Assembly (NCBI GenBank): GCA_001871445.1
Contig: MNVD01000022.1
Span: 1-46,383, forward strand
Length of the DNA: 46,383 nt
Direction of reading: 5' to 3'
Origin: Candidatus Magasanikbacteria bacterium CG1_02_41_34
GTDB taxonomy: Bacteria > Patescibacteriota > Patescibacteriia > Magasanikbacterales > UBA922
Shown: positions 6,663-19,093 of the stretch, one piece after another
How positions within the stretch are numbered: position 1 is the stretch's first letter
Layout: every line of letters starts with the position of its first letter
Position numbers and translations under genes: made by a program
The notes under the pieces: generated by a model
What the model saw: only the letters and a program-made list of their open reading frames with translations
The model's database searches: none
Told to the model about the DNA's origin: nothing

Positions 6663-6678
6663 TTCTCATGGAACACGT

Positions 6679-7833: not shown

Positions 7834-7899
7834 TCACGAAATACATAGTATGTAGCATATAACATTTTTGTTACGTGTTACATGCTATGTGTTTCGTGA
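7834..7899. repeat. Heptamer-array hairpin (TAGCACG family), 31-bp stem
   Basis: TCACGAAATACATAGTATGTAGCATATAACA-TTTT-TGTTACGTGTTACATGCTATGTGTTTCGTGA: 26 Watson-Crick pairs, 4 G-U pairs, 1 mismatch. Confidence 0.85.
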
Positions 7900-7905
7900 A
7901 AATCA

Positions 7906-9867
7906 ATGCCTGTCATGAAAAACTTTCACCACACAATGCATGCATCGCAGCAACGAAAGCACGGCTTCAGTCTCCTTGAGATTGTGGTGGCTGTTGGTAT
8001 TTTTGCCATCTTTGTCATTGGAATTTATTCTGGTATCCAGTTTGTGTTCAAACTTGTGTACAATTCTCGAGTACGTATCATCGAAACGTCACTCCTCAAT
8101 GAACAAATTGAGGGTATTCGGAATATGTCATTTTATGATGTGGGTATTGTGAATGGAAGTCCTTCTGGTTTGCTCGAGCGTACTGTCACGACAACACGTA
8201 ATAATATTGATTTTGAAATCACGAGAACTATTCGAAATATTGATGATCCGTTTGATGGTGTTATTGATCCTGGTGGAGGAAGCAGTGGTGGAGAGTGTCA
8301 ACAATCACAAACTGAATTGTGTCACGACGGGAGCACCCTCTGTGTGGGGCAAAATGCTGTGCAAGGGCATTTGAATCATGGTGATACAGAAGGTGCATGT
8401 GGTGCAGATGACCCTGTTTTTGACAATCAACCATCAGATTACAAGTTCGTAGATGTAGAGATTCTATGTACATCGTGCAACCAGCAAGTGCCAGTATCGA
8501 TGTCTACATACCTTGCTCCAAAATTTTTGGAAGGTGATCCTACGCATGGTGCTTTATTTATTCATGTTATAAATGCAAGCGGACAGATAGTACAAGGAGC
8601 GACAGTTCATGTTGTTTCAACAATAACAAATCCAACATATAATTTTTATGACACCACAGATAATGATGGTAAACTTGCCGTGGTAGATCTTGCTGCCGGT
8701 ATCGCAGCCTATGATATTACCGTGACAAAAAATGGATATACCACAGATCAAACAGTATCCTCAACGGTGTCAAATCCAAATCCTACAAAACCATTTGGTA
8801 CGGTTATCGCACAAGATCTGACTGAACTTTATTTTACGATTGATGCCATTTCTGAAATGAGTGTACAAACACTCAATGCTTATTGTACTCCGATTGGATC
8901 GACAGGTATATCCCTTGTAGGGACAAAAAAAATAGGAACATCTCCAGATGTTCTCCTGACCGATCTTAGTGTCACAACAAATGGAAGTGGACAATATACC
9001 TTTAGTGATCTGGTGTGGGATACGTATCAGTTTGATGTATCTGGCTATGATATTATAGGATCTATTCCAAATGAACGTATTGATTTACTTCCTGGTGTAA
9101 CACAACCAGTGAGTCTTATCCTGGGTTCTGTATCTACCAATGCACTTCGTGTTGATGTGGTCGACAGCGTGACGGGGCAGCCAATTGCGGATGCAACTGT
9201 TCTTGTTACTTCGACGAGCTTTAGTCAAGAAAAAATTACCGGCGTTGGAACTGTTGGTCAGACCGATTGGTTTGGTGGGTCTGGTCAGGAAACAATTGGT
9301 GATGATGCACGATTTTTTGATGATGATAGTAATGTTGATGTACTTACTTCTGCAGGAAATATTACGTTGCGTGATATGTTGGGACAGTATGCAGCGAGTG
9401 GTTGGCTTGAATCGTCAACGTTTGATCTTGGTCTCAATGCTACATATCAAAATATTATTTGGGAGCCACTCAGTCAGCCAAGTGAAACAGGACTGAATTC
9501 GGTTCGTTTTCAAATTGCTACTGCAAATTCGACTTCTCCTAGCTCATGGAGTTACCTTGGGCCAGATGGTACGACTGGGTCATATTATACTACCATTGAT
9601 ACTGTTATTTCAGACGCCCACGATGGTGATAGATATATACGCTATATGGCATATATGAGTACGGCGTCGACAACATATACTCCAACTCTCTCAAACGTGT
9701 CATTCACCTATACAAATAGTTGCACACCACCAGGGCAGACATACTTTGGTGGATTATCTGCAACAGACTATACCGTAACGGTGAGTGCTACAGGATACGA
9801 ATCAGAGAGTAGTAATGTGACTGTTGGCGGATATACGAAATTAACGGTGTCATTGCAAGGATCATAA
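7906..9867 (+). CDS. Type IV prepilin-like protein with long beta-sandwich (carboxypeptidase-regulatory-like) C-terminal domains
   Basis: Prepilin site KHG|FSLLEIVVAVGIF; T/S-rich beta repeats such as TTDNDG, YDITVTKNGY and YTVTVSATGY. Exact start uncertain (7906, 7915 or 7936). Confidence 0.85.
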   Translation: MPVMKNFHHTMHASQQRKHGFSLLEIVVAVGIFAIFVIGIYSGIQFVFKLVYNSRVRIIETSLLNEQIEGIRNMSFYDVGIVNGSPSGLLERTVTTTRNNIDFEITRTIRNIDDPFDGVIDPGGGSSGGECQQSQTELCHDGSTLCVGQNAVQGHLNHGDTEGACGADDPVFDNQPSDYKFVDVEILCTSCNQQVPVSMSTYLAPKFLEGDPTHGALFIHVINASGQIVQGATVHVVSTITNPTYNFYDTTDNDGKLAVVDLAAGIAAYDITVTKNGYTTDQTVSSTVSNPNPTKPFGTVIAQDLTELYFTIDAISEMSVQTLNAYCTPIGSTGISLVGTKKIGTSPDVLLTDLSVTTNGSGQYTFSDLVWDTYQFDVSGYDIIGSIPNERIDLLPGVTQPVSLILGSVSTNALRVDVVDSVTGQPIADATVLVTSTSFSQEKITGVGTVGQTDWFGGSGQETIGDDARFFDDDSNVDVLTSAGNITLRDMLGQYAASGWLESSTFDLGLNATYQNIIWEPLSQPSETGLNSVRFQIATANSTSPSSWSYLGPDGTTGSYYTTIDTVISDAHDGDRYIRYMAYMSTASTTYTPTLSNVSFTYTNSCTPPGQTYFGGLSATDYTVTVSATGYESESSNVTVGGYTKLTVSLQGS

Positions 9868-10484: not shown

Positions 10485-10510
10485 CATGTTACGTGTTGTA
10501 TGTTTTTTGT
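10485..10510 (-). repeat. Short reverse heptamer array (TAGCACG family)
   Basis: CATGTTA CGTGTTG TATGTTT fills the spacer between stop 10483 and ATG 10511. Confidence 0.55.
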
Positions 10511-11902
10511 ATGAAGCTATTTCCACTGCACAACACAAAAAAGTTTTTGCATGATAAACGAGGTAACTTGTTATTATTTGTCATGATCTTTGGGTCGCTT
10601 GCATTCACTATGATTGTCATGGGCGTATCAAGTTATGCCTTATTTGAAAATCAAGCATCGAATAGAAAACAGTCTCGTGATTTGTCTTTTCATATTGCAG
10701 AAGCTGGTATCAATTATTATCGTTGGCATCTCGCACATAGCCCTGAAGATTATCAAGATGGAACAGGTGTAGCAGGACCGTATGTACACGCATTTGAAGA
10801 TAAAAATGGCGATGTCATTGGATATTTTTCTCTTGATATAGACGCACCACTCGCCGGTACTACGATTGTAAATTTTCGTTCCACAGGTTGGACTATCGCG
10901 CAACCACAAAATACGAGAACTATTGGTGTTCGTGTCGGATATCCTGCACTCACAGATTTTTCTTTTGTGGAAAATTCTGACATGAGTTTTAGTTATACGA
11001 CAGAAGTGCATGGAAAGATCCATTCAAATGGCGGAATAGAATTTAATGGGACCACCGATTCTATTTTGCAAAGTGCAAAAGAAATCTATGATCCTGTTGG
11101 TGGTCCAGTAAATAGTCCTGGTATCTGGGGAAATGGTGGACCAACCACATTTTGGGATTTCCCTGTGCCCCCAAAGGATTTCAATGCTATTACTACTGAT
11201 TTGGCTGGTATTCGTGATGCATCAGATGCTGGAGGCTTGCATTTTTATTCGTCTGGATCAGAAGGATACCATATGATTTTTCAGGCAGATGGAACATTCA
11301 AACTATACACCGTGACAAAACGTCAAAAATATACAGATTATTGCAAAACTGTATACAATGGATATTGTTATTCTGGAAATGTGTATTATGACATTCAAAA
11401 TGAAACATATGATGCGACGTATACAATACCCGCAAATGGTGCCATTTTTGTAGAAGATGATATCTGGGTAGAAGGAGTGGTCAATGGACATGTGTCCGTA
11501 GGTGCTGGGAGATTTCCTGTGCTTGAAAGTACGTATCAAGAAATTTATCCGATAGGAAATATTACACTCCTCGCAAAAGAATCTACCAATGTGATAGGAC
11601 TGATTGCACAGGGGGATATTGTATATCCATACAATGTTCCAAATGATATGGTTGTGGAGGCTGCATTGCTTTCTCAATTCAAAAAAATTTATAGACCATA
11701 TTTTTCAAACACAAAGAATTCTCTTACTATTTTCGGATCACAAATTTCCTATGCTGGTGGCGGTGTCAAATGGGGGAATCCTGTCGTGAGTGGATTTATC
11801 AATACCATATATATTTATGATGGAAATCTTCGGTATCTTGTGCCACCTGGTTTTCCAGTTGAGCCGACGTATGAGTTGATTTCTTGGGAAGAAATAGAGT
11901 AA
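10511..11902 (+). CDS. PilX-like minor pilin
   Basis: KRG|NLLLFVMIF lacking Glu5, followed by SFHIAEAGINY (PilX N-terminal pattern); ends ISWEEIE. Start taken at MKLFP. Confidence 0.8.
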   Translation: MKLFPLHNTKKFLHDKRGNLLLFVMIFGSLAFTMIVMGVSSYALFENQASNRKQSRDLSFHIAEAGINYYRWHLAHSPEDYQDGTGVAGPYVHAFEDKNGDVIGYFSLDIDAPLAGTTIVNFRSTGWTIAQPQNTRTIGVRVGYPALTDFSFVENSDMSFSYTTEVHGKIHSNGGIEFNGTTDSILQSAKEIYDPVGGPVNSPGIWGNGGPTTFWDFPVPPKDFNAITTDLAGIRDASDAGGLHFYSSGSEGYHMIFQADGTFKLYTVTKRQKYTDYCKTVYNGYCYSGNVYYDIQNETYDATYTIPANGAIFVEDDIWVEGVVNGHVSVGAGRFPVLESTYQEIYPIGNITLLAKESTNVIGLIAQGDIVYPYNVPNDMVVEAALLSQFKKIYRPYFSNTKNSLTIFGSQISYAGGGVKWGNPVVSGFINTIYIYDGNLRYLVPPGFPVEPTYELISWEEIE

Positions 11903-11970
11903 CAAAAAAACTAAAAAACGTTTGCGTAGTCCAGCATGTCTCTGCCCCAAGTTCTATATCTGACAAAATA

Positions 11971-11999
11971 TGGCAAATCACACAACACTTTGCTATACT
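11971..11999 (+). promoter_or_regulatory. Sigma70-type promoter for galU
   Basis: TGGCAA-17 nt-TATACT with extended TG. Confidence 0.55.
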
Positions 12000-12024
12000 A
12001 CAAATAACCTAAATACACGAAGTT

Positions 12025-12897
12025 ATGTCAAAAAAACCACAGGTACGAAAAGGAGTGATTATTGTTGCAGGGCTTGGAACCCGTTTTCTTCCTGCCACAA
12101 AGGCGATGCCAAAAGAAATGCTTCCTATACTCGATAAGCCTGTCGTGCAATATATTGTCGAAGAAATGGTCGCGAGTGGGATCAGAGAAATTATTTTTGT
12201 TACGAGTTGGAACAAACGTTCTATCGAGGATCATTTTGATAGAAATCATGATCAAGAGTTTTTTCTCAAAGAACGTGGCAAGTATGATCGCATCGAAGCC
12301 CTCGTAGAACTTACCAAAAAAGTACAGTTTTTTTATACTCGACAATCTTCCCCAAAGGGGAATGGTGACGCCCTCCTCTGTGCAAAAGAATTTGTGGGCG
12401 ATGAGCCATTTGCATTTTCGGATGGTGATAGTGTAATTGATGCTAAAGTACCGGTTATTAAGCAACTGTTGAAAGTGTTTGATAAAAAGCAGGCATCTGT
12501 GATCGGTGCACAGCGACTCACTGATAAAGAAGCCATGACAAAATATGGCAATATCTATGGCAAACCTACTGGTGAAGATCGTATCTATCGAGTATCAAAA
12601 TTTGAAGAAAAACCTGACATTGAACATGTGTCCCCAGAAGGATTGATTGTTGGTGGCATGCGATATATTTTTACAAAAGATATCTGGCCATTTCTAGAAA
12701 AAGTTCGAAAAGGGAAAGATGGTGAACTTTGGGTAGCCGACGCTGCACACGCACTCGCACAAAAGAAAAAGTTTTTTGCCTACGAATACAATGGTCAGTA
12801 TTTTGATACTGGTGACAAACTGTCTCTCCTCAAAGCAACCCTTCATTTTGCGATGAAAGATGATGAAATACGAGAAGAACTTGGTGCATTTTTGTAA
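12025..12897 (+). CDS. galU: UTP--glucose-1-phosphate uridylyltransferase
   Basis: AGLGTRFLPATKAMPKEMLPI.DKP, SIEDHFD, FEEKP and DTGDK motifs. Confidence 0.92.
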   Translation: MSKKPQVRKGVIIVAGLGTRFLPATKAMPKEMLPILDKPVVQYIVEEMVASGIREIIFVTSWNKRSIEDHFDRNHDQEFFLKERGKYDRIEALVELTKKVQFFYTRQSSPKGNGDALLCAKEFVGDEPFAFSDGDSVIDAKVPVIKQLLKVFDKKQASVIGAQRLTDKEAMTKYGNIYGKPTGEDRIYRVSKFEEKPDIEHVSPEGLIVGGMRYIFTKDIWPFLEKVRKGKDGELWVADAAHALAQKKKFFAYEYNGQYFDTGDKLSLLKATLHFAMKDDEIREELGAFL

Positions 12898-12904
12898 TAG
12901 CTCT

Positions 12905-13777
12905 ATGGAAAACTGGTCCTGTCAATCAAAAAAAATATATTCATTTCAGAAAGTTTATTTTTTGGTTGTTGGATTCCTCTTTGCATGTTTTGCACTGCCT
13001 GGTATTGCTCATGCCGCAGTACTGGATTGGAATTGTGATCCGGGAAAAGAAATATGCTATATATTTCCTACTGCAGATGCAACAGAAAAGTCTGAGGAGT
13101 GTTTTGATAAAGCTGTCTCCAAGGCGTGGGGAACGCAAGATGCTCTACAAGAGGGGGAATTACTTCATTTTGAAATACCGATAGAAAATACTGGTGCAGT
13201 ACCACCTGTGTTTGCATGTTCAAATTGTGGCACTGAGGGATCGGTTTATAGATTTTATACTGAAGATAATACGGGGATTTTTGAAATAAATTTGGAGCAA
13301 AAAATTCTTAGAGATACACGAGCTGCAGTAGGGACAAGTCCGTATTATTACGCCAGATTTTTGTTGTCTGCGACAGTAACCAATACTGTCGCTGGAGTTG
13401 AAACTTCTGAAACGATATATGCAAATCTTTGTGCTGTGGTAAAAAAACCCGCACAAGTTGCTCCGCCAACTCAGCCGACAACAAAAGCACCTGTTGTTGA
13501 CGTAAAGTCTACCTTTCCTTCTATTACAGATTTGAACCCACTGAGGGCCACGTCTGTTCCGACCCTTTTTGGTCGTGGTATAACTATTTTGCTTGGTGTA
13601 CTTGGGAGTATTGCTATTCTCATTTTTATCTATGGTGGTATGCTCTGGATGACATCAATGGGGAATGCAGACCAAGCAGGAAAAGCATTGAAGACGATTG
13701 TCTGGGGAGCTATGGGCGTATTTGTTATATTTGCAAGTTATGCGGTTGTACAGTTTGTGCTGGATGCATTTAAATAG
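12905..13777 (+). CDS. VirB2/TrbC-like pilin-domain protein with N-terminal extracellular domain
   Basis: Signal peptide (..IAHA) and C-terminal IYGGMLWMTSMGNADQAGKALKTIVWGAMG two-TM hairpin. Confidence 0.8.
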   Translation: MENWSCQSKKIYSFQKVYFLVVGFLFACFALPGIAHAAVLDWNCDPGKEICYIFPTADATEKSEECFDKAVSKAWGTQDALQEGELLHFEIPIENTGAVPPVFACSNCGTEGSVYRFYTEDNTGIFEINLEQKILRDTRAAVGTSPYYYARFLLSATVTNTVAGVETSETIYANLCAVVKKPAQVAPPTQPTTKAPVVDVKSTFPSITDLNPLRATSVPTLFGRGITILLGVLGSIAILIFIYGGMLWMTSMGNADQAGKALKTIVWGAMGVFVIFASYAVVQFVLDAFK

Positions 13778-13816
13778 CACGTAACACATAGCACGTAGCA
13801 CGTAGCACGTAACACA
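13775..13816 (+). repeat. Tandem heptamer array, 6 units
   Basis: TAGCACG TAACACA TAGCACG TAGCACG TAGCACG TAACACA. The first TAG is the pilin stop codon. Confidence 0.95.
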
Positions 13817-13823
13817 TTTTTGC

Positions 13824-13898
13824 ATGATGAATACGAGAAATGCATTTCATGATAAACTAAAGAAGTTGATACAATTTCACGTAACACATATCACGTAG
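13824..13898 (+). pseudogene. Truncated 5' remnant of a four-helix-bundle gene
   Basis: MMNTRNAFHDKLKKLIQ versus MGEGFHEKLKRLIH of the downstream gene; 23/29 nt identical; runs into the repeat array and stops. Confidence 0.75.
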
Positions 13899-13944
13899 CA
13901 CATAGCACGTAACATGTAGCACGTAGCATGTAACATATAACAAA
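13875..13944 (+). repeat. Tandem heptamer array, 10 units
   Basis: TTTCACG TAACACA TATCACG TAGCACA TAGCACG TAACATG TAGCACG TAGCATG TAACATA TAACAAA. Confidence 0.95.
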
Positions 13945-13947
13945 AAT

Positions 13948-14313
13948 ATGGGGGAGGGGTTTCATGAAAAGTTAAAAAGGTTGATTCATGAATATATACG
14001 TTTGAGCTATGTTCATACCAAAAAGTATCCAGCAGATGAGAGGTTTGGACTTACATCACAAGATAGAAGAGCCGCTGTATCAGTGATGTCAAATTATGTA
14101 GAAGGGCACGGAAGAATAAAGATTGGATCCAAACAGAATTTTTATGAAATATCATTTGCATCACTAAAAGAATCCATTTATTGTAGATTTTTAGCACAAG
14201 AGCTTTTGTATATAACGAAAGAGGAATACACAAAAGCGTTTGCTCTAAAAGACGAGATAGCGGCCATGCTGTATACTACGATTAAGGGATTAGAAAAAGA
14301 CAAAAGTACATAG
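13948..14313 (+). CDS. Four-helix-bundle protein (23S rRNA IVP / bAvd-like family)
   Basis: TKKYPADERFGLTSQDRRAAVSVMSNYVEGHGR...FYEISFASLKE matches the family pattern FP..E.YGL.SQ.RRAA.S...NIAEG. Confidence 0.92.
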   Translation: MGEGFHEKLKRLIHEYIRLSYVHTKKYPADERFGLTSQDRRAAVSVMSNYVEGHGRIKIGSKQNFYEISFASLKESIYCRFLAQELLYITKEEYTKAFALKDEIAAMLYTTIKGLEKDKST

Positions 14314-14416
14314 AACACATAACACGAAACACATAACAACACGAAACACATATCACGTAGCACGTAACACGGTGCCACAAGAAGTGTTATGTGTTATGTG
14401 TTACGTGCTACGTGAA
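14313..14416. repeat. Forward plus reverse heptamer arrays forming a hairpin
   Basis: Forward array 14313-14371 and reverse array 14384-14416. Perfect 18-bp inverted repeat TCACGTAGCACGTAACAC (14353-14370) / GTGTTACGTGCTACGTGA (14398-14415). Confidence 0.93.
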
Positions 14417-14422
14417 TATCCT

Positions 14423-15802
14423 ATGAGAACGAAATACCTCACAATACTTCTTACCATGCTTAGCATAACCGCCCTGGCTGGTTTCGGTTGCAAAGGACTT
14501 TCTCAAACAGAGCAAGCATCTATCAAACCAATCACGCTGACATACTGGACAGTCTTCGATGATGTTGGACAGCTCCAAAAATTTGCAGCAGCCTACAAGA
14601 AAACACGTCCATACGTGACAGTAAATATCCGACAGATTCGCTACGAAGAATTTGATGATTTGTTTACCAATGCGCTGGCAGATGATATCGGGCCAGATGT
14701 TGTGTCCATGCATGTGCGCTGGCTTGGCAAGTATGAGGCACGTCTCGATCCGATGCCTGCGTCCGTCAATGTATCTGATGTAGAGATCACTGGTAGTCAA
14801 TTTTCAGAGCAGATCATCGTCACGCCACGAACCAATCCTATGCCAAGTATTCGTGGGCTTGAGTCCAATTTTATTGGGACAGTGGCGAGTGATGTGGTCA
14901 TCCGAAATCAGATCTATGGTCTTCCACTTGCACTTGATACACTCGCATTATATTACAATAAAAAAATTCTCGATAAAGCTGGTATCGCAGAGCCACCAAC
15001 ATCGTGGACAACGTTTCTCGATGATGTAAAAAAAATTACACGTGTAAATGGAGTAGGAGATATTATTCAGTCTGGTGTACCGATGGGGACAGGGAATAAT
15101 ATCGACAATGCTACAGATATTTTTGCACTGCTTCTCTTGCAAAATGGGGTGGATGTGGTCAAAGATGGTACTGTTGTATTTGCTGGTGGCATAGACCGAG
15201 CAGCGTCAAATCATCCGACACTCGAGGCATTACGATTTTATACTGATTTTGCCCGTCCGACAAAAGAAGTCTATAGTTGGAATGAAAAACAAACAGATGC
15301 ATTTACCGCCTTTACGCAAGGAAGAGCGGGATTTTTCTTTGGCTTTGCATACGATTTTCCTCGCATAAAAAGTCGTGCCCCACAGCTCGCTATTGAAGTG
15401 ATCCCTGTGCCTCAGCTCAATGACAATGCACCGGTAAATGTAGCAAATTATTGGGTGGAGAGTGTTGTAAAGAAAACAAAGCATCGAGACGAAGCGTGGG
15501 ATTTTATCCGTTTTATGACGACGCCTGAGAATATCAAAATATATACAGACGCGACAAAGCAGCCGTCGCCGCTCAGGGCGCATGTCGCTGCGCAGCAAGA
15601 AGATCCGGAGCTTGGTCCGTTTGTGCAGGGTATCCTTACGGCGAAAAACTGGTATACTGGGAGAGATATAGATAAAGCAAATATTGCGATTGAAAACCTT
15701 ATGTTGCAGTATCTTTTGCCGTATGCAGATGGGCAAAATGCATTGAAAAGAGATGCCCAGCTTATCATTAATGCTGCGACAATAGTACAGCAAACGTTGT
15801 AG
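14423..15802 (+). CDS. Extracellular solute-binding lipoprotein (family 1, sugar-binding-like)
   Basis: Lipoprotein-like signal ..ALAGFGC; GPDV, IYGLPL..DTLALYYNK, PPTSW and AWDFIRF motifs. Upstream GTG extension is only repeat sequence. Confidence 0.88.
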   Translation: MRTKYLTILLTMLSITALAGFGCKGLSQTEQASIKPITLTYWTVFDDVGQLQKFAAAYKKTRPYVTVNIRQIRYEEFDDLFTNALADDIGPDVVSMHVRWLGKYEARLDPMPASVNVSDVEITGSQFSEQIIVTPRTNPMPSIRGLESNFIGTVASDVVIRNQIYGLPLALDTLALYYNKKILDKAGIAEPPTSWTTFLDDVKKITRVNGVGDIIQSGVPMGTGNNIDNATDIFALLLLQNGVDVVKDGTVVFAGGIDRAASNHPTLEALRFYTDFARPTKEVYSWNEKQTDAFTAFTQGRAGFFFGFAYDFPRIKSRAPQLAIEVIPVPQLNDNAPVNVANYWVESVVKKTKHRDEAWDFIRFMTTPENIKIYTDATKQPSPLRAHVAAQQEDPELGPFVQGILTAKNWYTGRDIDKANIAIENLMLQYLLPYADGQNALKRDAQLIINAATIVQQTL

Positions 15803-15805
15803 AAT

Positions 15806-17224
15806 ATGAGAATATCGAATTTATCAATAAATAAAAGTAGATTACTTTGGGTAAGTATATTAGGATTTTTTTTGTTTTTTCCCTCTGATGATGCTCGAGC
15901 TTTGGCAAGCATTCCAACGACCTGTAAAAATATCCCAGGACAAAGTTCTGATGTACAAATAGGGCATTATTTTGCTTTTATCAATCAACCAATTACACTT
16001 CAAGAAAGAGAACAATTTTTAAATACAGATGGTGCAGATATTCCACCTATAAAATATGTAGATAGTTTTGATTGTATATACAAAGCTAATACATCAGGAT
16101 ATATAACTTTTGCTGATCTATTGAGCTCACATTTAATACCAATGGATTGGCAACAAAATCACCCAAATTTTTTAACAAATTATTATTGGCCTGAGTTGAG
16201 AACGGGCAAGTATGGTGTTAATGATCCTGATCATCAGTTTGAGTTATTGTTATCTACTTATTTTAATATCAAACCTCCTGTTGCCCCTGCAGCTGGAGTC
16301 AATGATGCCATCAAAGCTCGGATTTTTTATACTATTAGAGATGGTAATCAAGAGAAAGGATATTTATTTTTTCTTGGAGATACAGAACACCAAGTAGCTA
16401 TTTCTCTTGGAACATGGAGTGGTAAAGTGATAACCATCTCAAAAGGAGAAAAAAAGACTTTTAAGGTGGAACTAACTACGGATGTTACCGGAGTAAAAAT
16501 TACGTGTGAAAATTGTGCTGATCAGGCTATTATTATTTCACCTTCATCAGAAAACACTCCGAATGTTGTTCTTTTAACATTGGATGAAACAAAAATAAAA
16601 ACTCCTTTGATCATTCTAAAAGCTCAAAAAGGAGCTTTTGTTGACCAATATTCTTTAACCGTGAATATAGTCGATGTTGAATGCAGCGCTCTCTCTGAAG
16701 GAGAATGTGCAACAAATAGCTTTTGTTTCTCTTTTGAGAAAGAATGTATTGCTAAAACAAGAAATATCGAATGTGTGAAAGTCCCAAAAGCTCTTTGTGG
16801 TACAAAAGAAGGGTCTTCATATTGTACATATCTCGAAGCAACAAATACGTGTACAGACTATCTCAGTAGTGCATATCAAAGTTCGTATAAACCACCCAAC
16901 GCAGGTGATTACAAAGGGCCGCTCCCTCCTTGTGCGTTTGATGGAAGCTGTCGGAATGTCAATGATCTCATCCAACTGTTTATCAATTTTGGAAAGATGA
17001 CACTTGGAATTGTTGGTTCTGCTGCATTGATATTTTTTGTATACGGTGGTTTCATGATGATCATTTCTGCTGGAAATGCGGAGCGTGTGAAAAAGGGAAG
17101 GGATATTCTCGTTGCAGCAATTGTCGGCATTGTGATCGCATTTAGTGCGTATGCCCTTATCAACTTTGTCCTCGATGCACTGAACGTATCGGAGGATTTT
17201 CGTGTGATTGAAGAAATCAAATAA
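15806..17224 (+). CDS. Large VirB2-like pilin-domain protein with Cys-rich region
   Basis: Signal peptide, Cys-rich stretch, C-terminal FVYGGFMMIISAGNAERVKKGRDILVAAIVG. Confidence 0.8.
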   Translation: MRISNLSINKSRLLWVSILGFFLFFPSDDARALASIPTTCKNIPGQSSDVQIGHYFAFINQPITLQEREQFLNTDGADIPPIKYVDSFDCIYKANTSGYITFADLLSSHLIPMDWQQNHPNFLTNYYWPELRTGKYGVNDPDHQFELLLSTYFNIKPPVAPAAGVNDAIKARIFYTIRDGNQEKGYLFFLGDTEHQVAISLGTWSGKVITISKGEKKTFKVELTTDVTGVKITCENCADQAIIISPSSENTPNVVLLTLDETKIKTPLIILKAQKGAFVDQYSLTVNIVDVECSALSEGECATNSFCFSFEKECIAKTRNIECVKVPKALCGTKEGSSYCTYLEATNTCTDYLSSAYQSSYKPPNAGDYKGPLPPCAFDGSCRNVNDLIQLFINFGKMTLGIVGSAALIFFVYGGFMMIISAGNAERVKKGRDILVAAIVGIVIAFSAYALINFVLDALNVSEDFRVIEEIK

Positions 17225-17228
17225 TATA

Positions 17229-17378
17229 TATCACGAAACACATAGCACGTAACACGTAACAAAAAAAGTGTTGAAGATAGATTTTTGTGATAACATAAGA
17301 ATGTCGGTTTTTAAAATTAACTTTGATACGTACATACATAGTGCATGAAGAAGTGATATGTGTTACGTGCTACGTGAA
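17229..17378. repeat. Forward and reverse heptamer arrays with about 90-nt spacer
   Basis: TATCACG AAACACA TAGCACG TAACACG TAACAAA (17229-17263) ... GTGATA TGTGTTA CGTGCTA CGTGAA (17353-17378). Confidence 0.9.
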
Positions 17379-17383
17379 AAAAT

Positions 17384-19093
17384 ATGACGCCAAACTTTAT
17401 AAACACAAAACAATCATTCATCTACGCACTTCTTGTCTTCGGATTGTTTTTGTTTCCGCAGCGTGTTTTTACTGCACTGCCAACGCCAGTGACGACGACC
17501 CCGGAATCCAAGTACACGTTCTATACATATATCTCAACCTGTAGCGATACGGACAAAGTATTTCCTGGTGAGTTTACAGGTAACAAGGCTAGTCAAAGTA
17601 AAAAAGTGGGTATTGTCGTTCCTAGGAGTATACCTCACAGCGAAATTACGTATATTTATTTTCATGGGAATGATGAGTTACCTGTTGAAGATATCTGTAA
17701 TGGATCACGATATAAGATATGTGATACTGCTGTTGCATTGGGAGCCCCGATGATTATTCCACAAACTGCGGTAAATGGTTCTTCAAAAAAAACAACGCGT
17801 ACTACCAAAGAAGAATTCGAATGTGTTATGAATGAAGCATACGATGTCTTGGTTTCAAAAGGTATTTCTTCACAAAAAAATTATATTGTGGCAGGGCATA
17901 GTGGTGGTGCATTTACGATGAGTAGTTATTTTATTGCAGGTTTGATAGCGCAAAAGGCGATTGTACTAGATGGATGTTATGTGACAGATCCTCCAAATCC
18001 AAATCCACCGGCAAATTTCTGTCAGGATATTATTGCCAATTTTGCTGGTCCTGTAGATTTTTATTATCAGACCCTTTCTAGTTCTGGTGAAACAGCTGGG
18101 ACACGAGTTGAAACTCTAAAAACTGTTGCCATAGCACACCCTGGTGGAGCTCTCACTGCAAAAAAAGTAAACCTTACACATTATCAACTTCCTACTGCCT
18201 GTCTCAAAGACGCTACTACTTGTGAAAATCATGTAGTAGTGGACAGTGGTACTAGTGGTGGTGACACTTCTTCTGGGGGGGCATCGGGTGGAACATCTTC
18301 TGGTGGCACGACGGCACCAAAAGGACCAACGTACACAGGCAACGAGCTTCCTATTCATACGGTTGAGCTTGTCAATCCTATAAAAGGAAATGTTACAGAT
18401 TTCCGTATTATTTTTGGAAATGTTGTTCAAAAGCTCATGGCAATTATTGGAGCTGTTACACTGGTCGTCTTCATCATTGGTGGTGCATATTGGCTCCTCT
18501 CTGCCGGCAATCCAGAGCGCGTCAAAAAGGGTACCGAAACTATGGTCTGGGCTGCGATAGGATTGTTTGTTGTCTTTGGGGCGTATGGAATTTTGAGTGC
18601 AGTGATTGGAGGGTTGACGGGGAGATCTGTAGTGGATAGTGGTGCGCCGACAAATTCGAGTGATGTTCATCTCATCACTGGGTATGTAAAAATTATCAAT
18701 CAAAAAACCCTTATCATGTCTGAACCAAAATCAAATGTCACGGCAAAGGGAACATTGAATCCTAATACGGATTGTGTGCCCGTAACAGGAAAAAAACAAA
18801 ATGGGTTTTCAGAAGTAAGAGATCCAAAAAATCTTGCATTGTATGGCTGGGTACTCGATGGATCTATTGTACAAACAACAGCTCAATGTGGAGGAGATCA
18901 GTCTACCGCTCCTTCTCAAGATACACAAAATACAGGAAAGTGCGTCTGCACTATCAAAGATGATACGACGGGTGATACCTCACAAACAGCTATTCCAAAT
19001 GTAGATAGTCCAGCAGAATGTGTAACTACATCATTGCAAAGTCCTATTGTTGGAACAAGTATTAGTGGTTGTTCTTGGCAAACAACAAATTAA
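17384..19093 (+). CDS. Pilin-domain fusion: alpha/beta-hydrolase-like domain, G/S linker, VirB2-like pilin, C-terminal domain
   Basis: IYFHG, VAGHSGGA nucleophile elbow and VLDG; then FIIGGAYWLLSAGNPERVKKGTETMVWAAIG. Confidence 0.75.
   Translation: MTPNFINTKQSFIYALLVFGLFLFPQRVFTALPTPVTTTPESKYTFYTYISTCSDTDKVFPGEFTGNKASQSKKVGIVVPRSIPHSEITYIYFHGNDELPVEDICNGSRYKICDTAVALGAPMIIPQTAVNGSSKKTTRTTKEEFECVMNEAYDVLVSKGISSQKNYIVAGHSGGAFTMSSYFIAGLIAQKAIVLDGCYVTDPPNPNPPANFCQDIIANFAGPVDFYYQTLSSSGETAGTRVETLKTVAIAHPGGALTAKKVNLTHYQLPTACLKDATTCENHVVVDSGTSGGDTSSGGASGGTSSGGTTAPKGPTYTGNELPIHTVELVNPIKGNVTDFRIIFGNVVQKLMAIIGAVTLVVFIIGGAYWLLSAGNPERVKKGTETMVWAAIGLFVVFGAYGILSAVIGGLTGRSVVDSGAPTNSSDVHLITGYVKIINQKTLIMSEPKSNVTAKGTLNPNTDCVPVTGKKQNGFSEVRDPKNLALYGWVLDGSIVQTTAQCGGDQSTAPSQDTQNTGKCVCTIKDDTTGDTSQTAIPNVDSPAECVTTSLQSPIVGTSISGCSWQTTN

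What the first reader, a model, noticed from the sequence alone, without database searches (positions are those of the whole stretch)
13775..14416. Four-helix-bundle (bAvd-like) gene wrapped in heptamer arrays: candidate repeat-plus-protein system inside the pilin locus
Seen: TA(G/A)CAC(G/A) arrays of 6, 10 and about 8 units, then an inverted array, surround the 121-aa gene. The same repeat family recurs without the gene at 7834, 10485, 17229 and weakly at 6671. Known: this fold family includes 23S rRNA intervening-sequence proteins and the DGR accessory protein Avd, a nucleic-acid-binding pentamer; the function of stand-alone copies is not established. Inference: gene plus repeats form one unit. 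It may be a minimal mobile or recombining cassette with gene-less derivatives, or a protein that binds repeat RNA/DNA hairpins to regulate surface-structure genes. No reverse transcriptase or recombinase is adjacent.
Basis: partly seen in the sequence, partly recalled or inferred. Interest (0 to 1): 0.85.

Follow-up and report, generated by a model that had tools for sequence, protein, structure and literature searches.

The report
Gene cassette bracketed by inverted heptamer arrays
A small four-helix-bundle gene of the kind first found inside ribosomal RNA genes sits here between two ordinary genes, enclosed by inverted runs of 7-base repeats, and gene plus repeats come and go as one unit in related genomes, an arrangement that recurs around this gene family in many bacterial phyla.

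Summary
Four TA(G/A)CAC(G/A) heptamer arrays surround a 121-aa PF05635/TIGR02436 gene at 13948-14313. The 14-base double unit occurs 16 times in the window against 0.05 expected.

They pair into a long stem that encloses the gene, like the terminal stem of 23S rRNA intervening sequences.

This holds well beyond the window.
- Cognate flanks are at least 14/16 complementary for 22/31 copies in this genome and relatives, and for 51/79 copies from many phyla. Non-cognate pairs reach this in 2/155 and 13/395.
- Repeat units are mostly 7-8 nt and differ from locus to locus.
- GxxExxY (PF13366) genes have the same bracket, 20/25.
- Cassettes fill operon spacers and point the same way as both neighbours in 77/106 cases.
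- Within the genus, cassette and arrays are present or absent together at clean sites.
- Period-7 arrays occur in 6/6 sampled genomes that carry the gene and in 0/7 that lack it.

Best reading: a mobile, IVS-type intergenic cassette with gene-less hairpin derivatives. Processing of the stem by RNase III is inferred, not shown. What the protein does is open. I rate it a new variant of a known kind, of high interest.

The parts
12860..13777 (+). Upstream host gene (pilin-like, C-terminal T4SS_pilin-like segment). Its TAG stop at 13775-13777 is the first unit of array 1.
   Evidence: ORF. PF18895 at 24.8 bits, just under the cut-off of 26.6. (sequence).
13775..13817 (+). Array 1: about 6 units of TAGCACG/TAACACA. 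It is the 5' arm of the outer stem.
   Evidence: In the minimum-free-energy fold it pairs with array 4.
13827..13898 (+). Remnant of a second four-helix-bundle gene: 23 codons, N-terminus only, running into array 2. It is conserved in the sister genome G003.
   Evidence: 7/14 identical to residues 4-17 of the gene, E 5e-4 for that single comparison; the same remnant is present in G003.
13878..13944 (+). Array 2: about 8-9.5 heptamer units, ending 3 nt before the start codon.
13948..14313 (+). Cargo gene: a 121-aa four-helix-bundle protein (PF05635 / TIGR02436, '23S rRNA intervening sequence protein'). It carries the conserved R41, S45, N49, E52 and G53.
   Evidence: invariant columns. PDB 2gsc XCC0516, E 4.7e-8.
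14314..14371 (+). Array 3: about 8 degenerate units in the same orientation as arrays 1 and 2. With array 4 it can also form a local hairpin.
   Evidence: The sequence is shown.
14384..14410 (+). Array 4: about 4 units of the reverse complement (GTGTTAT/GTGCTAC). It is the 3' arm of the stem and ends 12 nt before the ATG of the next gene.
   Evidence: (matches on the minus strand).
14423..15802 (+). Downstream host gene, an extracellular solute-binding protein. The start is taken as the ATG at 14423.
   Evidence: PF01547, E 5.3e-33; orthologues in 5 of 5 relatives searched.
7834..7907 (.). Gene-less hairpin of the same heptamer family, with a 5-nt loop. Present in G000 and G003; G001 has an unrelated hairpin at this place.
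   Evidence: junction J1.
17229..17377 (.). Gene-less element of the same family: two inverted arms around an 85-nt loop. Present in G000 and G003; G001 has a 10-nt spacer here.
   Evidence: junction J5.
10485..10502 (.). Stub of about 2 units of the family. G003 has a full hairpin at this junction and G001 has none.
   Evidence: junction J2.

Best explanation
The feature is an intervening-sequence-type intergenic cassette. A PF05635 four-helix-bundle gene is bracketed by inverted tandem arrays of a locus-specific heptamer. The whole unit is inserted exactly between the stop codon of one host gene and the start codon of the next, in the host genes' orientation.

Shown: gene and arrays are gained or lost together. 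The architecture recurs around this gene family in many phyla and around GxxExxY nuclease genes. Gene-less hairpins of the same repeat family are scattered through the genome. Heptamer arrays were found only in genomes that carry the genes.

Inferred: the cassette has no promoter of its own and is transcribed with the host operon. In the transcript the two arms pair into a stem of about 30 bp. RNase III, which this genome encodes, cuts that stem and releases the cargo RNA, as published for 23S rRNA intervening sequences that carry the same gene family. This would make the insertion tolerable inside essential operons.

Inferred with less support: the arms stay complementary and change quickly through slippage and template switching between them. 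Spread and cargo exchange happen by recombination at the arrays.

Unknown: the transposition chemistry and the activity of the protein.
For: Anatomy. The arrays are real. The minimum-free-energy fold of 13765-14420 pairs array 1 with array 4 around the whole cassette (-158 kcal/mol, z -4.6, 0 of 20 shuffles as good). No sigma-70-like promoter was found in 13400-14700 (0 found, 3.6 expected).

Generality.
- All 5 PF05635 loci of this genome are flanked by inverted arrays, each with its own unit.
- Flank self-identity at lag 7 is 0.40 upstream and 0.36 downstream, against 0.25 in controls, for 32 genes.
- An array of period 6-9 is present upstream of 75/112 genes and downstream of 63/112, against 7/214 control windows.
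- Cognate flanks are at least 14/16 complementary in 22/31, 51/79 and 20/25 (GxxExxY) genes, against 2/155, 13/395 and 8/125 non-cognate pairs.

Context. Both neighbours are co-oriented with the gene in 77/106 cases and both opposite in 5/106. 47/65 upstream arrays begin no more than 10 nt after the upstream stop codon. 36/50 downstream arrays end no more than 15 nt before the next ATG.

Unit gained or lost whole.
- Pilin-SBP junction: filled in G000 and G003; clean empty sites in G001, G002 and G015.
- pheS-pheT and frr-dtd: filled in G000, G002 and G003; empty in G001, where pheS and pheT overlap as TAATATG.
- A further cassette is present only in G003, and the gene-less hairpins are polymorphic too.
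- The gene tree conflicts with the flanks at pheS-pheT.

Genome level. Period-7 arrays occur in 6/6 sampled PF05635-positive genomes (77 arrays in 1840 kb) and in 0/7 negative genomes (829 kb).

Strand-specific function. Upstream arms are purine-rich on the gene strand in 57 arrays against 12, and downstream arms mirror this.

RNase III is encoded at G000:C36:30611-31006.

Published, passages read in PMC4990558: an intervening sequence with this ORF has a 28-bp terminal stem that RNase III cleaves in vitro, and tandem heptamers upstream of the ORF whose number differs between strains.
Against: - No RNA data exist for this organism, so co-transcription, stem formation and cleavage are untested.
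- Duplex energies do not favour the sense transcript over the antisense one (60 against 51 genes, p 0.18).
- No transposase, target-site duplication or other mobility signature was found.
- Array 3 with array 4 can form a competing local hairpin.
- By my thresholds 37/112 upstream and 49/112 downstream flanks have no array, and about a third of genes lack a 14/16 inverted match.
- The 80 loci from other phyla are the best matches to a single query, not a random sample of the family.
- The genome-level comparison rests on 13 related genomes, and the stretches from positive genomes were taken from contigs chosen because they had hits.
- The reason for a 7-8 nt period is unexplained.
Confidence: 0.6

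Rival explanations
1. A repeat-plus-associated-protein system like REPIN-RAYT. The four-helix-bundle protein (and the GxxExxY nuclease) binds its own heptamer arrays as RNA or single-stranded DNA and maintains, copies or spreads them. The gene-less hairpins would depend on the protein acting in trans. This overlaps with the best explanation and is not exclusive of it.
For: Each gene has its own unit. In G000, 17 of 38 gene-less period-7 arrays fall in the family of a resident gene (12 with the window's gene, 5 with the C18 gene), against 15% under a permuted null. Arrays are absent from 7/7 gene-free genomes. All 11 PF13366-positive genomes are among the 22 PF05635-positive genomes of 41. Relatives of the protein (Avd, XCC0516) are pentameric; Avd's binding to nucleic acid is recalled, not checked. 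Passages on homology were read in PMC10053308 and PMC3936711.
Against: No binding data exist. 21 of 38 gene-less arrays have no resident cognate gene. Proteins share repeat 6-mers only above about 60% identity and at chance level below 50%. Several copies are pseudogenes, yet their arrays persist. A 120-aa helical bundle has no known catalytic activity.
Confidence: 0.3
2. A domesticated regulator. The protein binds the arrays next to it and at other junctions to control the flanking operons, here the pilin and transporter genes.
For: The arrays sit exactly at gene boundaries inside operons. The same repeat family occurs at several pilin-gene junctions in the window.
Against: The sites are insertion polymorphisms among close relatives. 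Copies sit in unrelated housekeeping operons (pheST, frr-dtd, a conserved operon junction in Bacteroidales, cas operons). Many copies are broken. At the same junction different genomes carry different cargo.
Confidence: 0.08
3. The hairpins are ordinary slippage-prone intergenic stem-loops (terminators or stabilisers) unrelated to the gene, and the gene merely tends to insert into them.
For: Gene-less hairpins are more numerous than cassettes. In cyanobacteria such 7-bp repeat hairpins have been discussed as possible transcript stabilisers (passage in PMC2670836).
Against: Empty orthologous sites have no arrays at all. Genomes without the genes had 0 period-7 arrays in 829 kb. No other period from 5 to 11 shows long arrays in this genome (11 against 0).
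Confidence: 0.05
4. A spare Avd that serves the genome's diversity-generating retroelement in trans.
For: The genome has an RT (C16:19713-20816). The fold family is shared with Avd.
Against: That RT has its own adjacent bAvd (PF22296, 48.3 bits against a cut-off of 40), which has no heptamer flanks. The window protein scores below the Avd cut-offs (18.5 against 80, and 21.4 against 40).
Confidence: 0.02

Closest known systems
23S rRNA intervening sequences that carry a PF05635 ORF (Leptospira recalled; Coxiella passages read, PMC4990558)
   Same: The same gene family sits in the loop. Terminal inverted repeats form a long stem. There are tandem heptamers upstream of the ORF whose copy number varies. 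The element lies inside a host transcript in the host's orientation. In that system RNase III cuts the stem.
   Different: This cassette lies between protein-coding genes, not in rRNA helix 25 or 45. Both arms are made of tandem heptamer arrays. A gene remnant and an extra direct array are present. Cleavage is not shown here.
Cyanobacterial STRR sequences (short tandemly repeated repetitive heptamers)
   Same: Both are tandem 7-bp units in intergenic spacers of operons that can form hairpins, with function described as unknown (passage in PMC2670836). Four-helix-bundle genes on Nostoc, Anabaena and Pseudanabaena plasmids are flanked by such arrays in the 6 loci inspected.
   Different: STRR were described as repeats alone, in heterocyst-forming cyanobacteria. 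I found no paper linking them to PF05635 genes. The organism here is a small-genome groundwater bacterium.
REP/REPIN sequences with their RAYT transposase (recalled, not read here)
   Same: A single gene is flanked by inverted copies of a repeat. Many gene-less copies of the repeat lie in intergenic regions. There are gene-specific repeat families. The repeats are missing from genomes without the gene.
   Different: The proteins here are a four-helix bundle and a small PD-(D/E)XK protein, not a HUH tyrosine transposase. The repeats are tandem heptamer arrays, not a fixed palindrome.
DGR accessory protein Avd
   Same: Homologous four-helix-bundle fold (weak HMM matches; passage on homology in PMC10053308).
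   Different: The window protein scores below the Avd cut-offs and has no adjacent RT, template repeat or variable repeat. The genome's true bAvd lies elsewhere and has no heptamer arrays.
MITEs and free-standing homing-endonuclease genes
   Same: They are short elements with inverted ends, or small selfish genes, inserted precisely between host genes and variably present among close relatives.
   Different: No target-site duplication is visible at filled against empty sites. No transposase is known. The inverted ends are tandem arrays whose sequence differs from copy to copy.

Membership tests
PF05635 / TIGR02436 four-helix-bundle protein | HMM score above the curated cut-off | tested here: met
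   PF05635 scores 75.6 bits against a cut-off of 33.8. TIGR02436 scores 75.5 bits against 24.
PF05635 / TIGR02436 four-helix-bundle protein | Conserved R...S...N..EG motif (reported as GxxRxxxSxxxNxxE in PMC3936711) | tested here: met
   R41, S45, N49, E52 and G53 are present. These are invariant columns in the 25-sequence alignment A2 (motif passage).
PF05635 / TIGR02436 four-helix-bundle protein | Sequence relative with a solved four-helix-bundle structure | tested here: met
   2gsc (XCC0516), E 4.7e-8, over residues 13-96. No structure was predicted here.
DGR Avd (NF033474 / PF22296) | HMM score above the cut-off | tested here: not met
   NF033474 scores 18.5 bits against 80. PF22296 scores 21.4 bits against 40.
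DGR Avd (NF033474 / PF22296) | Adjacent reverse transcriptase | tested here: not met
   The only RVT_1 match in the genome is on contig C16, with its own bAvd.
23S rRNA intervening sequence element | Located in a 23S rRNA helix | tested here: not met
   The cassette lies between a pilin-like gene and a solute-binding-protein gene. There is no Rfam match in 13000-15000 apart from a chance miRNA hairpin hit far below its threshold.
23S rRNA intervening sequence element | Terminal inverted repeats that form a long stem around the ORF | tested here: met
   Predicted only: arrays 1 and 4 pair in the minimum-free-energy fold and in the centroid structure.
23S rRNA intervening sequence element | Excision by RNase III | not testable with these tools
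   An RNase III gene is present. No RNA run holds the locus.
REPIN-RAYT-type repeat system | Gene flanked by inverted repeats of a family that also has dispersed gene-less copies | tested here: met
   12 gene-less arrays belong to the window gene's family.
REPIN-RAYT-type repeat system | Associated protein is a HUH (Y1) transposase | tested here: not met
   The protein is PF05635. The sister cargo is PF13366, a PD-(D/E)XK family.
STRR heptamer repeats | Tandem 7-bp units in intergenic regions that can form hairpins | tested here: met
   The definition comes from the passage in PMC2670836.
MITE | Target-site duplication flanking the inverted ends | tested here: not met
   No duplicated bases are visible at filled against empty junctions. 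This was judged by eye on 5 junctions.

The most novel reading that the evidence does not exclude
Short-period (7-9 nt) tandem arrays in bacterial intergenic spacers, including the cyanobacterial STRR repeats that have been unexplained since 1990, are not passive slippage products. They are the nucleic-acid half of a widespread repeat-plus-protein system. Its protein half is the '23S rRNA intervening sequence' four-helix-bundle family, together with GxxExxY nucleases. The protein recognises its own array and maintains or spreads it. rRNA intervening sequences are then just the copies that landed in rRNA.
Probability: 0.3. Interest if true: 0.9.

Novelty: new variant of a known kind. Interest (0 to 1): 0.78.

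Why it matters
PF05635 is a large family annotated only as 'four helix bundle protein'. It is known from rRNA intervening sequences and through its relative Avd, and no function has been established for the stand-alone copies.

This work gives the family a defining genomic signature: an inverted bracket of locus-specific 7-8 nt tandem arrays. It shows that rRNA intervening sequences are one case of a general cassette that colonises operon spacers. It ties a second unexplained family (GxxExxY) to the same architecture.

It also offers a concrete lead on the origin of heptamer repeat arrays, which here occur only in genomes that carry these genes. It may explain why these genes were reported as 'CRISPR-associated': they sit between cas genes as inserted cassettes.

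The predictions can be tested directly in culturable Bacteroides and Nostoc: RNase III cuts within the arrays, the protein binds its cognate array, and alleles are either filled or empty.

Tried and rejected
1. Stop codons in all three frames as the reason for a period not divisible by three. Rejected: 26/75 upstream arrays have stops in all frames, against a permuted-unit null mean of 36. Only a strand bias of TAG was seen (28 sense against 4 antisense).

2. A G-U wobble signature for the sense RNA. Sense and antisense duplex energies do not differ (60 against 51 genes, Wilcoxon p 0.18). With 130-nt flanks this measure is noisy.

3. Protein subfamily determines repeat sequence. This holds only for close relatives: 14/14 pairs share a 6-mer at 70% identity or more, 19/32 at 60-70%, and about 8% (chance level) below 50%.

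4. Rfam. No family matched in 13000-15000 except a chance miRNA-hairpin hit at 27.9 bits against a threshold of 100. Nothing matched in L003 or L121.

5. Expression. No RNA holder was listed among 24 runs, all groundwater or aquifer DNA.

6. Read laying on 4 DNA runs. Contigs break at the arrays. The 'joints' have sides under 31 letters at 85% likeness and probably come from other copies of the repeat family. I draw no conclusion on empty alleles or array length.

7. Role as a DGR accessory protein: see the rival explanations.

8. Literature. The searches found no paper that describes heptamer-array brackets as a general property of PF05635 or GxxExxY genes. Only the single-species note in PMC4990558 came close. 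Subscription journals, curated family annotations and supplements were not visible. Ralph & McClelland 1993 is not held.

10. No structure or complex was predicted. The fold assignment rests on HMM matches and the PDB sequence match.

Rows dropped.
- L004 (pseudogene), L011 (duplicate of L001) and hits with E above 1e-10 were left out, which leaves 31 genes plus the window copy.
- 2 of 30 GxxExxY loci (L147 and L150, both with stops) were not found by phmmer.
- genes with a flank shorter than 100 nt were left out (1 of 32, 1 of 80, 3 of 28).
Full report
**1. The observation**

The window is contig C5 of a 1.04-Mb, 36-contig genome of about 41% G+C. It comes from groundwater-type metagenomes.

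Tandem Repeats Finder confirms four heptamer arrays around the ORF 13948-14313:
- 13775-13815, 5.9 copies
- 13878-13932, 7.9 copies, running on to about 13944
- 14314-14370, 7.7 copies, degenerate, same orientation
- 14384-14407, 3.4 copies of the reverse complement

The double unit TARCAYRTARCAYR occurs 16 times in the window. Shuffles give a mean of 0.05 and a largest value of 1.

The ORF is a clear member of PF05635 and TIGR02436. It scores below the cut-offs for the DGR protein Avd. Its closest solved relative by sequence is XCC0516 (2gsc, E 4.7e-8).

- The TAG stop of the upstream pilin-like gene is the first repeat unit.
- Between arrays 1 and 2 lies a 23-codon remnant of a second gene of the same family. 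The sister genome G003 has the same remnant.

**2. The arms are inverted and enclose the gene**

An RNA fold of 13765-14420 pairs array 1 with array 4 in a long stem around the whole cassette. This holds in both the minimum-free-energy and the centroid structure (-158 kcal/mol, z -4.6). No sigma-70-like promoter was found in 13400-14700.

The genome has five PF05635 loci, one of them frameshifted. Each is flanked by an upstream array and a downstream inverted array, and each has a different unit. Two copies sit between pheS and pheT and between frr and dtd. The pilin context is therefore incidental.

Long arrays (at least 6 units) exist in this genome only for period 7: 11 arrays, against 0 for periods 5, 6 and 8-11.

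**3. Generality**

PF05635 matches occur in 22 of 41 related genomes, often in many copies, up to 18. I analysed 31 genes from this genome and its relatives plus the window copy. I also analysed the 80 best of 587 confirmed loci found across the species-genome collection with one query protein. By record title these loci come from candidate-phyla groups, Bacteroidota, Planctomycetota, Acidobacteriota, Nitrospirota, Chloroflexi, Atribacterota, Desulfobacterota, Clostridia and others.

| Measure | Result | Control |
|---|---|---|
| Mean lag-7 self-identity of 80-nt flanks (32 genes) | 0.40 upstream, 0.36 downstream | 0.25 |
| Array of period 6-9 upstream | 75/112 genes (period 7: 42; period 8: 26) | 7/214 control windows |
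| Array of period 6-9 downstream | 63/112 genes | 7/214 control windows |
| Cognate flanks at least 14/16 complementary, G000 and relatives | 22/31 | 2/155 non-cognate pairs |
| Cognate flanks at least 14/16 complementary, 80 loci | 51/79 | 13/395 non-cognate pairs |

- The unit sequence differs between loci. It is shared only by proteins more than about 60% identical.
- At one conserved operon junction in Bacteroidales the gene is kept while the repeat unit differs between genera (by eye). What is conserved is the form, periodic and complementary, not the sequence.
- Six four-helix-bundle genes on Nostoc, Anabaena and Pseudanabaena plasmids also carry heptamer arrays. Two of them lie between cas6 and cas4.

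**4. Context**

- Both neighbours are co-oriented with the gene in 77/106 cases and both opposite in 5/106.
- The arrays abut the host genes. 47/65 upstream arrays begin no more than 10 nt after the upstream stop. 36/50 downstream arrays end no more than 15 nt before the next ATG.
- On the gene strand the upstream arm is purine-rich in 57 arrays against 12 (G 0.29, C 0.14). The downstream arm mirrors this. This argues for a strand-specific role, in RNA or single-stranded DNA.

**5. One unit, gained or lost whole**

| Junction | Filled | Empty or different |
|---|---|---|
| Pilin-SBP (the window's site) | G000 and G003. G003 has the same layout with fewer units per array; its protein is 76% identical. 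| G001 (20-nt spacer), G002 and G015. None has any heptamer. |
| pheS-pheT | G000, G002, G003 | G001 empty, with overlapping TAATATG. G007 carries a GxxExxY gene (PF13366/TIGR04256) bracketed by inverted CACAGAT arrays. G015 carries a weak 2H-phosphoesterase-like gene. |
| frr-dtd | G000, G003, G002 (frameshifted) | G001 and G015 empty |
| 11900-12024 (window coordinates) | G003 only, a broken cassette | G000 and G001 |

The gene-less hairpins at 7834 and 17229 are present in G000 and G003 but not in G001.

At pheS-pheT the flanks place G002 and G003 closest (0.88-0.91 DNA identity). The cargo gene instead places G000 with G002 (0.91, against 0.79 for G002-G003). The cargo has therefore been exchanged independently of its flanks.

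**6. A second cargo family, and the genome-level link**

GxxExxY genes occur in 11 of the 41 genomes, and all 11 are among the 22 that carry PF05635. Their flanks are inverted arrays of 8-9 nt units in 20/25 cases at 14/16 or better.

| Genomes sampled | Period-7 arrays (at least 4 units, at least 80% self-identity) | Sequence sampled |
|---|---|---|
| PF05635-positive: G000 (whole), G015, G002, G016, G029, G036 | 28, 12, 11, 6, 18 and 2; total 77 | 1840 kb |
| PF05635-negative: G026, G012, G005, G027, G004, G031, G006 | 0 in every one | 829 kb |

Three caveats apply. The genomes are kin. The stretches from positive genomes came from contigs known to hold hits. The sample is 13 genomes.

In G000, 17 of 38 gene-less period-7 arrays fall in the repeat family of a resident cargo gene. 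The permuted null gives 15%.

**7. How it most likely works**

Shown: the architecture, its generality, the co-orientation, the exact filling of operon spacers, the polymorphism of the whole unit, the exchange of cargo, and the genome-level co-occurrence.

Inferred from published work on rRNA intervening sequences with this ORF: these have a 28-bp terminal stem that RNase III cleaves in vitro, and tandem heptamers upstream of the ORF that vary between strains (passages of PMC4990558). By analogy the cassette is read through from the host operon. Its arms pair in the transcript. RNase III, encoded in this genome, releases the cargo RNA. This limits harm to the host operon.

On this view the rRNA intervening sequences are the copies of a general operon-spacer cassette that landed in rRNA. 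ORFs of this family are reported in 16S and 23S insertions of candidate-phyla bacteria (passage in bioRxiv 10.1101/2024.02.27.582315).

Less supported: concerted evolution of the two arms by slippage and template switching, and spread by recombination at the arrays.

Open: the protein's activity, the mobility chemistry, and why the period is 7-8.

**8. Comparison with what is known**

Closest are the rRNA intervening sequences: same cargo, a stem, heptamers. Next are cyanobacterial STRR heptamer hairpins, whose function is described as unknown (passage in PMC2670836). The logic resembles REPIN-RAYT systems (recalled, not read).

It is not a DGR Avd. The genome's RT has its own bAvd, and that gene has no heptamer flanks.

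Earlier reports counted these genes as cas-locus or CRISPR-linked (passages in PMC3936711, and PMC10910872). Cassette insertion between cas genes explains those reports more simply.

I found no paper that states the general bracket architecture. Subscription papers, curated family notes and supplements were out of reach.

**9. Verdict**

The interpretation that gene plus repeats form one mobile or recombining unit with gene-less derivatives is supported. The link to pilin regulation is not. I rate it a new variant of a known kind (intervening-sequence elements), with high interest. It gives an uncharacterised, widespread gene family a defining signature and links it to heptamer repeat arrays. 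That link can be tested in culturable bacteria.

Noticed in passing
G000 contig C16:19713-21093 (locus L121:6714-8091): A diversity-generating-retroelement-like pair lies here: a reverse transcriptase (RVT_1, E 7e-25) next to a divergent bAvd-like gene (PF22296, 48.3 bits). The bAvd has no heptamer arrays around it.
   Followed up: partly
G000 contig C28:43058-43136: A hairpin of the TAACACG family appears to lie in frame inside a long reverse-strand ORF, so it would add about 27 codons to a protein. This was read by eye. The ORF's identity was not tested.
   Followed up: no
G000 contig C18:15085-15154 (locus L003:3086-3155): The longest perfect array in the genome (GTTAGGT, about 8-10 units) stands alone. 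It lies next to a G+C-rich stretch with several hairpins. Rfam found nothing there at gathering thresholds.
   Followed up: partly
L125 (G015:C3), rc 780-1439, between pheS and pheT: The junction that holds a four-helix-bundle cassette in G000 holds, in G015, a 220-aa gene with weak 2H-phosphoesterase / 2',3'-cyclic phosphodiesterase matches (TIGR02258, 33 bits, below cut-off). A heptamer array (ATGTTAC) follows it.
   Followed up: partly
L259 (Anabaena sp. 90 plasmid pANA02) and L260 (Pseudanabaena galeata plasmid): Four-helix-bundle genes sit between cas6 and cas4 inside very long heptamer arrays (GGTGACA/GGGAACA, and AAAGCTA about 17 times). Such arrays and insertions may explain why the family was scored as CRISPR-linked in two papers.
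   Followed up: partly
window 12860-19093: There are three consecutive genes with a C-terminal T4SS_pilin-like segment (PF18895; 24.8, 29.2 and 36.1 bits). Elements of the same heptamer family lie at two of the gene junctions in this stretch (13775-14410 and 17229-17377).
   Followed up: no
L002/L122/L123 compared with window/L115/L117: Relationships among the four genomes of the genus are mosaic. By the solute-binding protein G003 is closest to G000 (92% aa) and G002 is far (70%). By pheS/pheT DNA, G002 and G003 are closest to each other (0.88-0.91).
   Followed up: no
G000 contig C28:33768-33828: A solitary direct array (AATTGTT, about 8 units) with no inverted partner fills the spacer between two co-oriented ORFs. 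Its unit matches the flank of the pheS-pheT cassette on C7.
   Followed up: no
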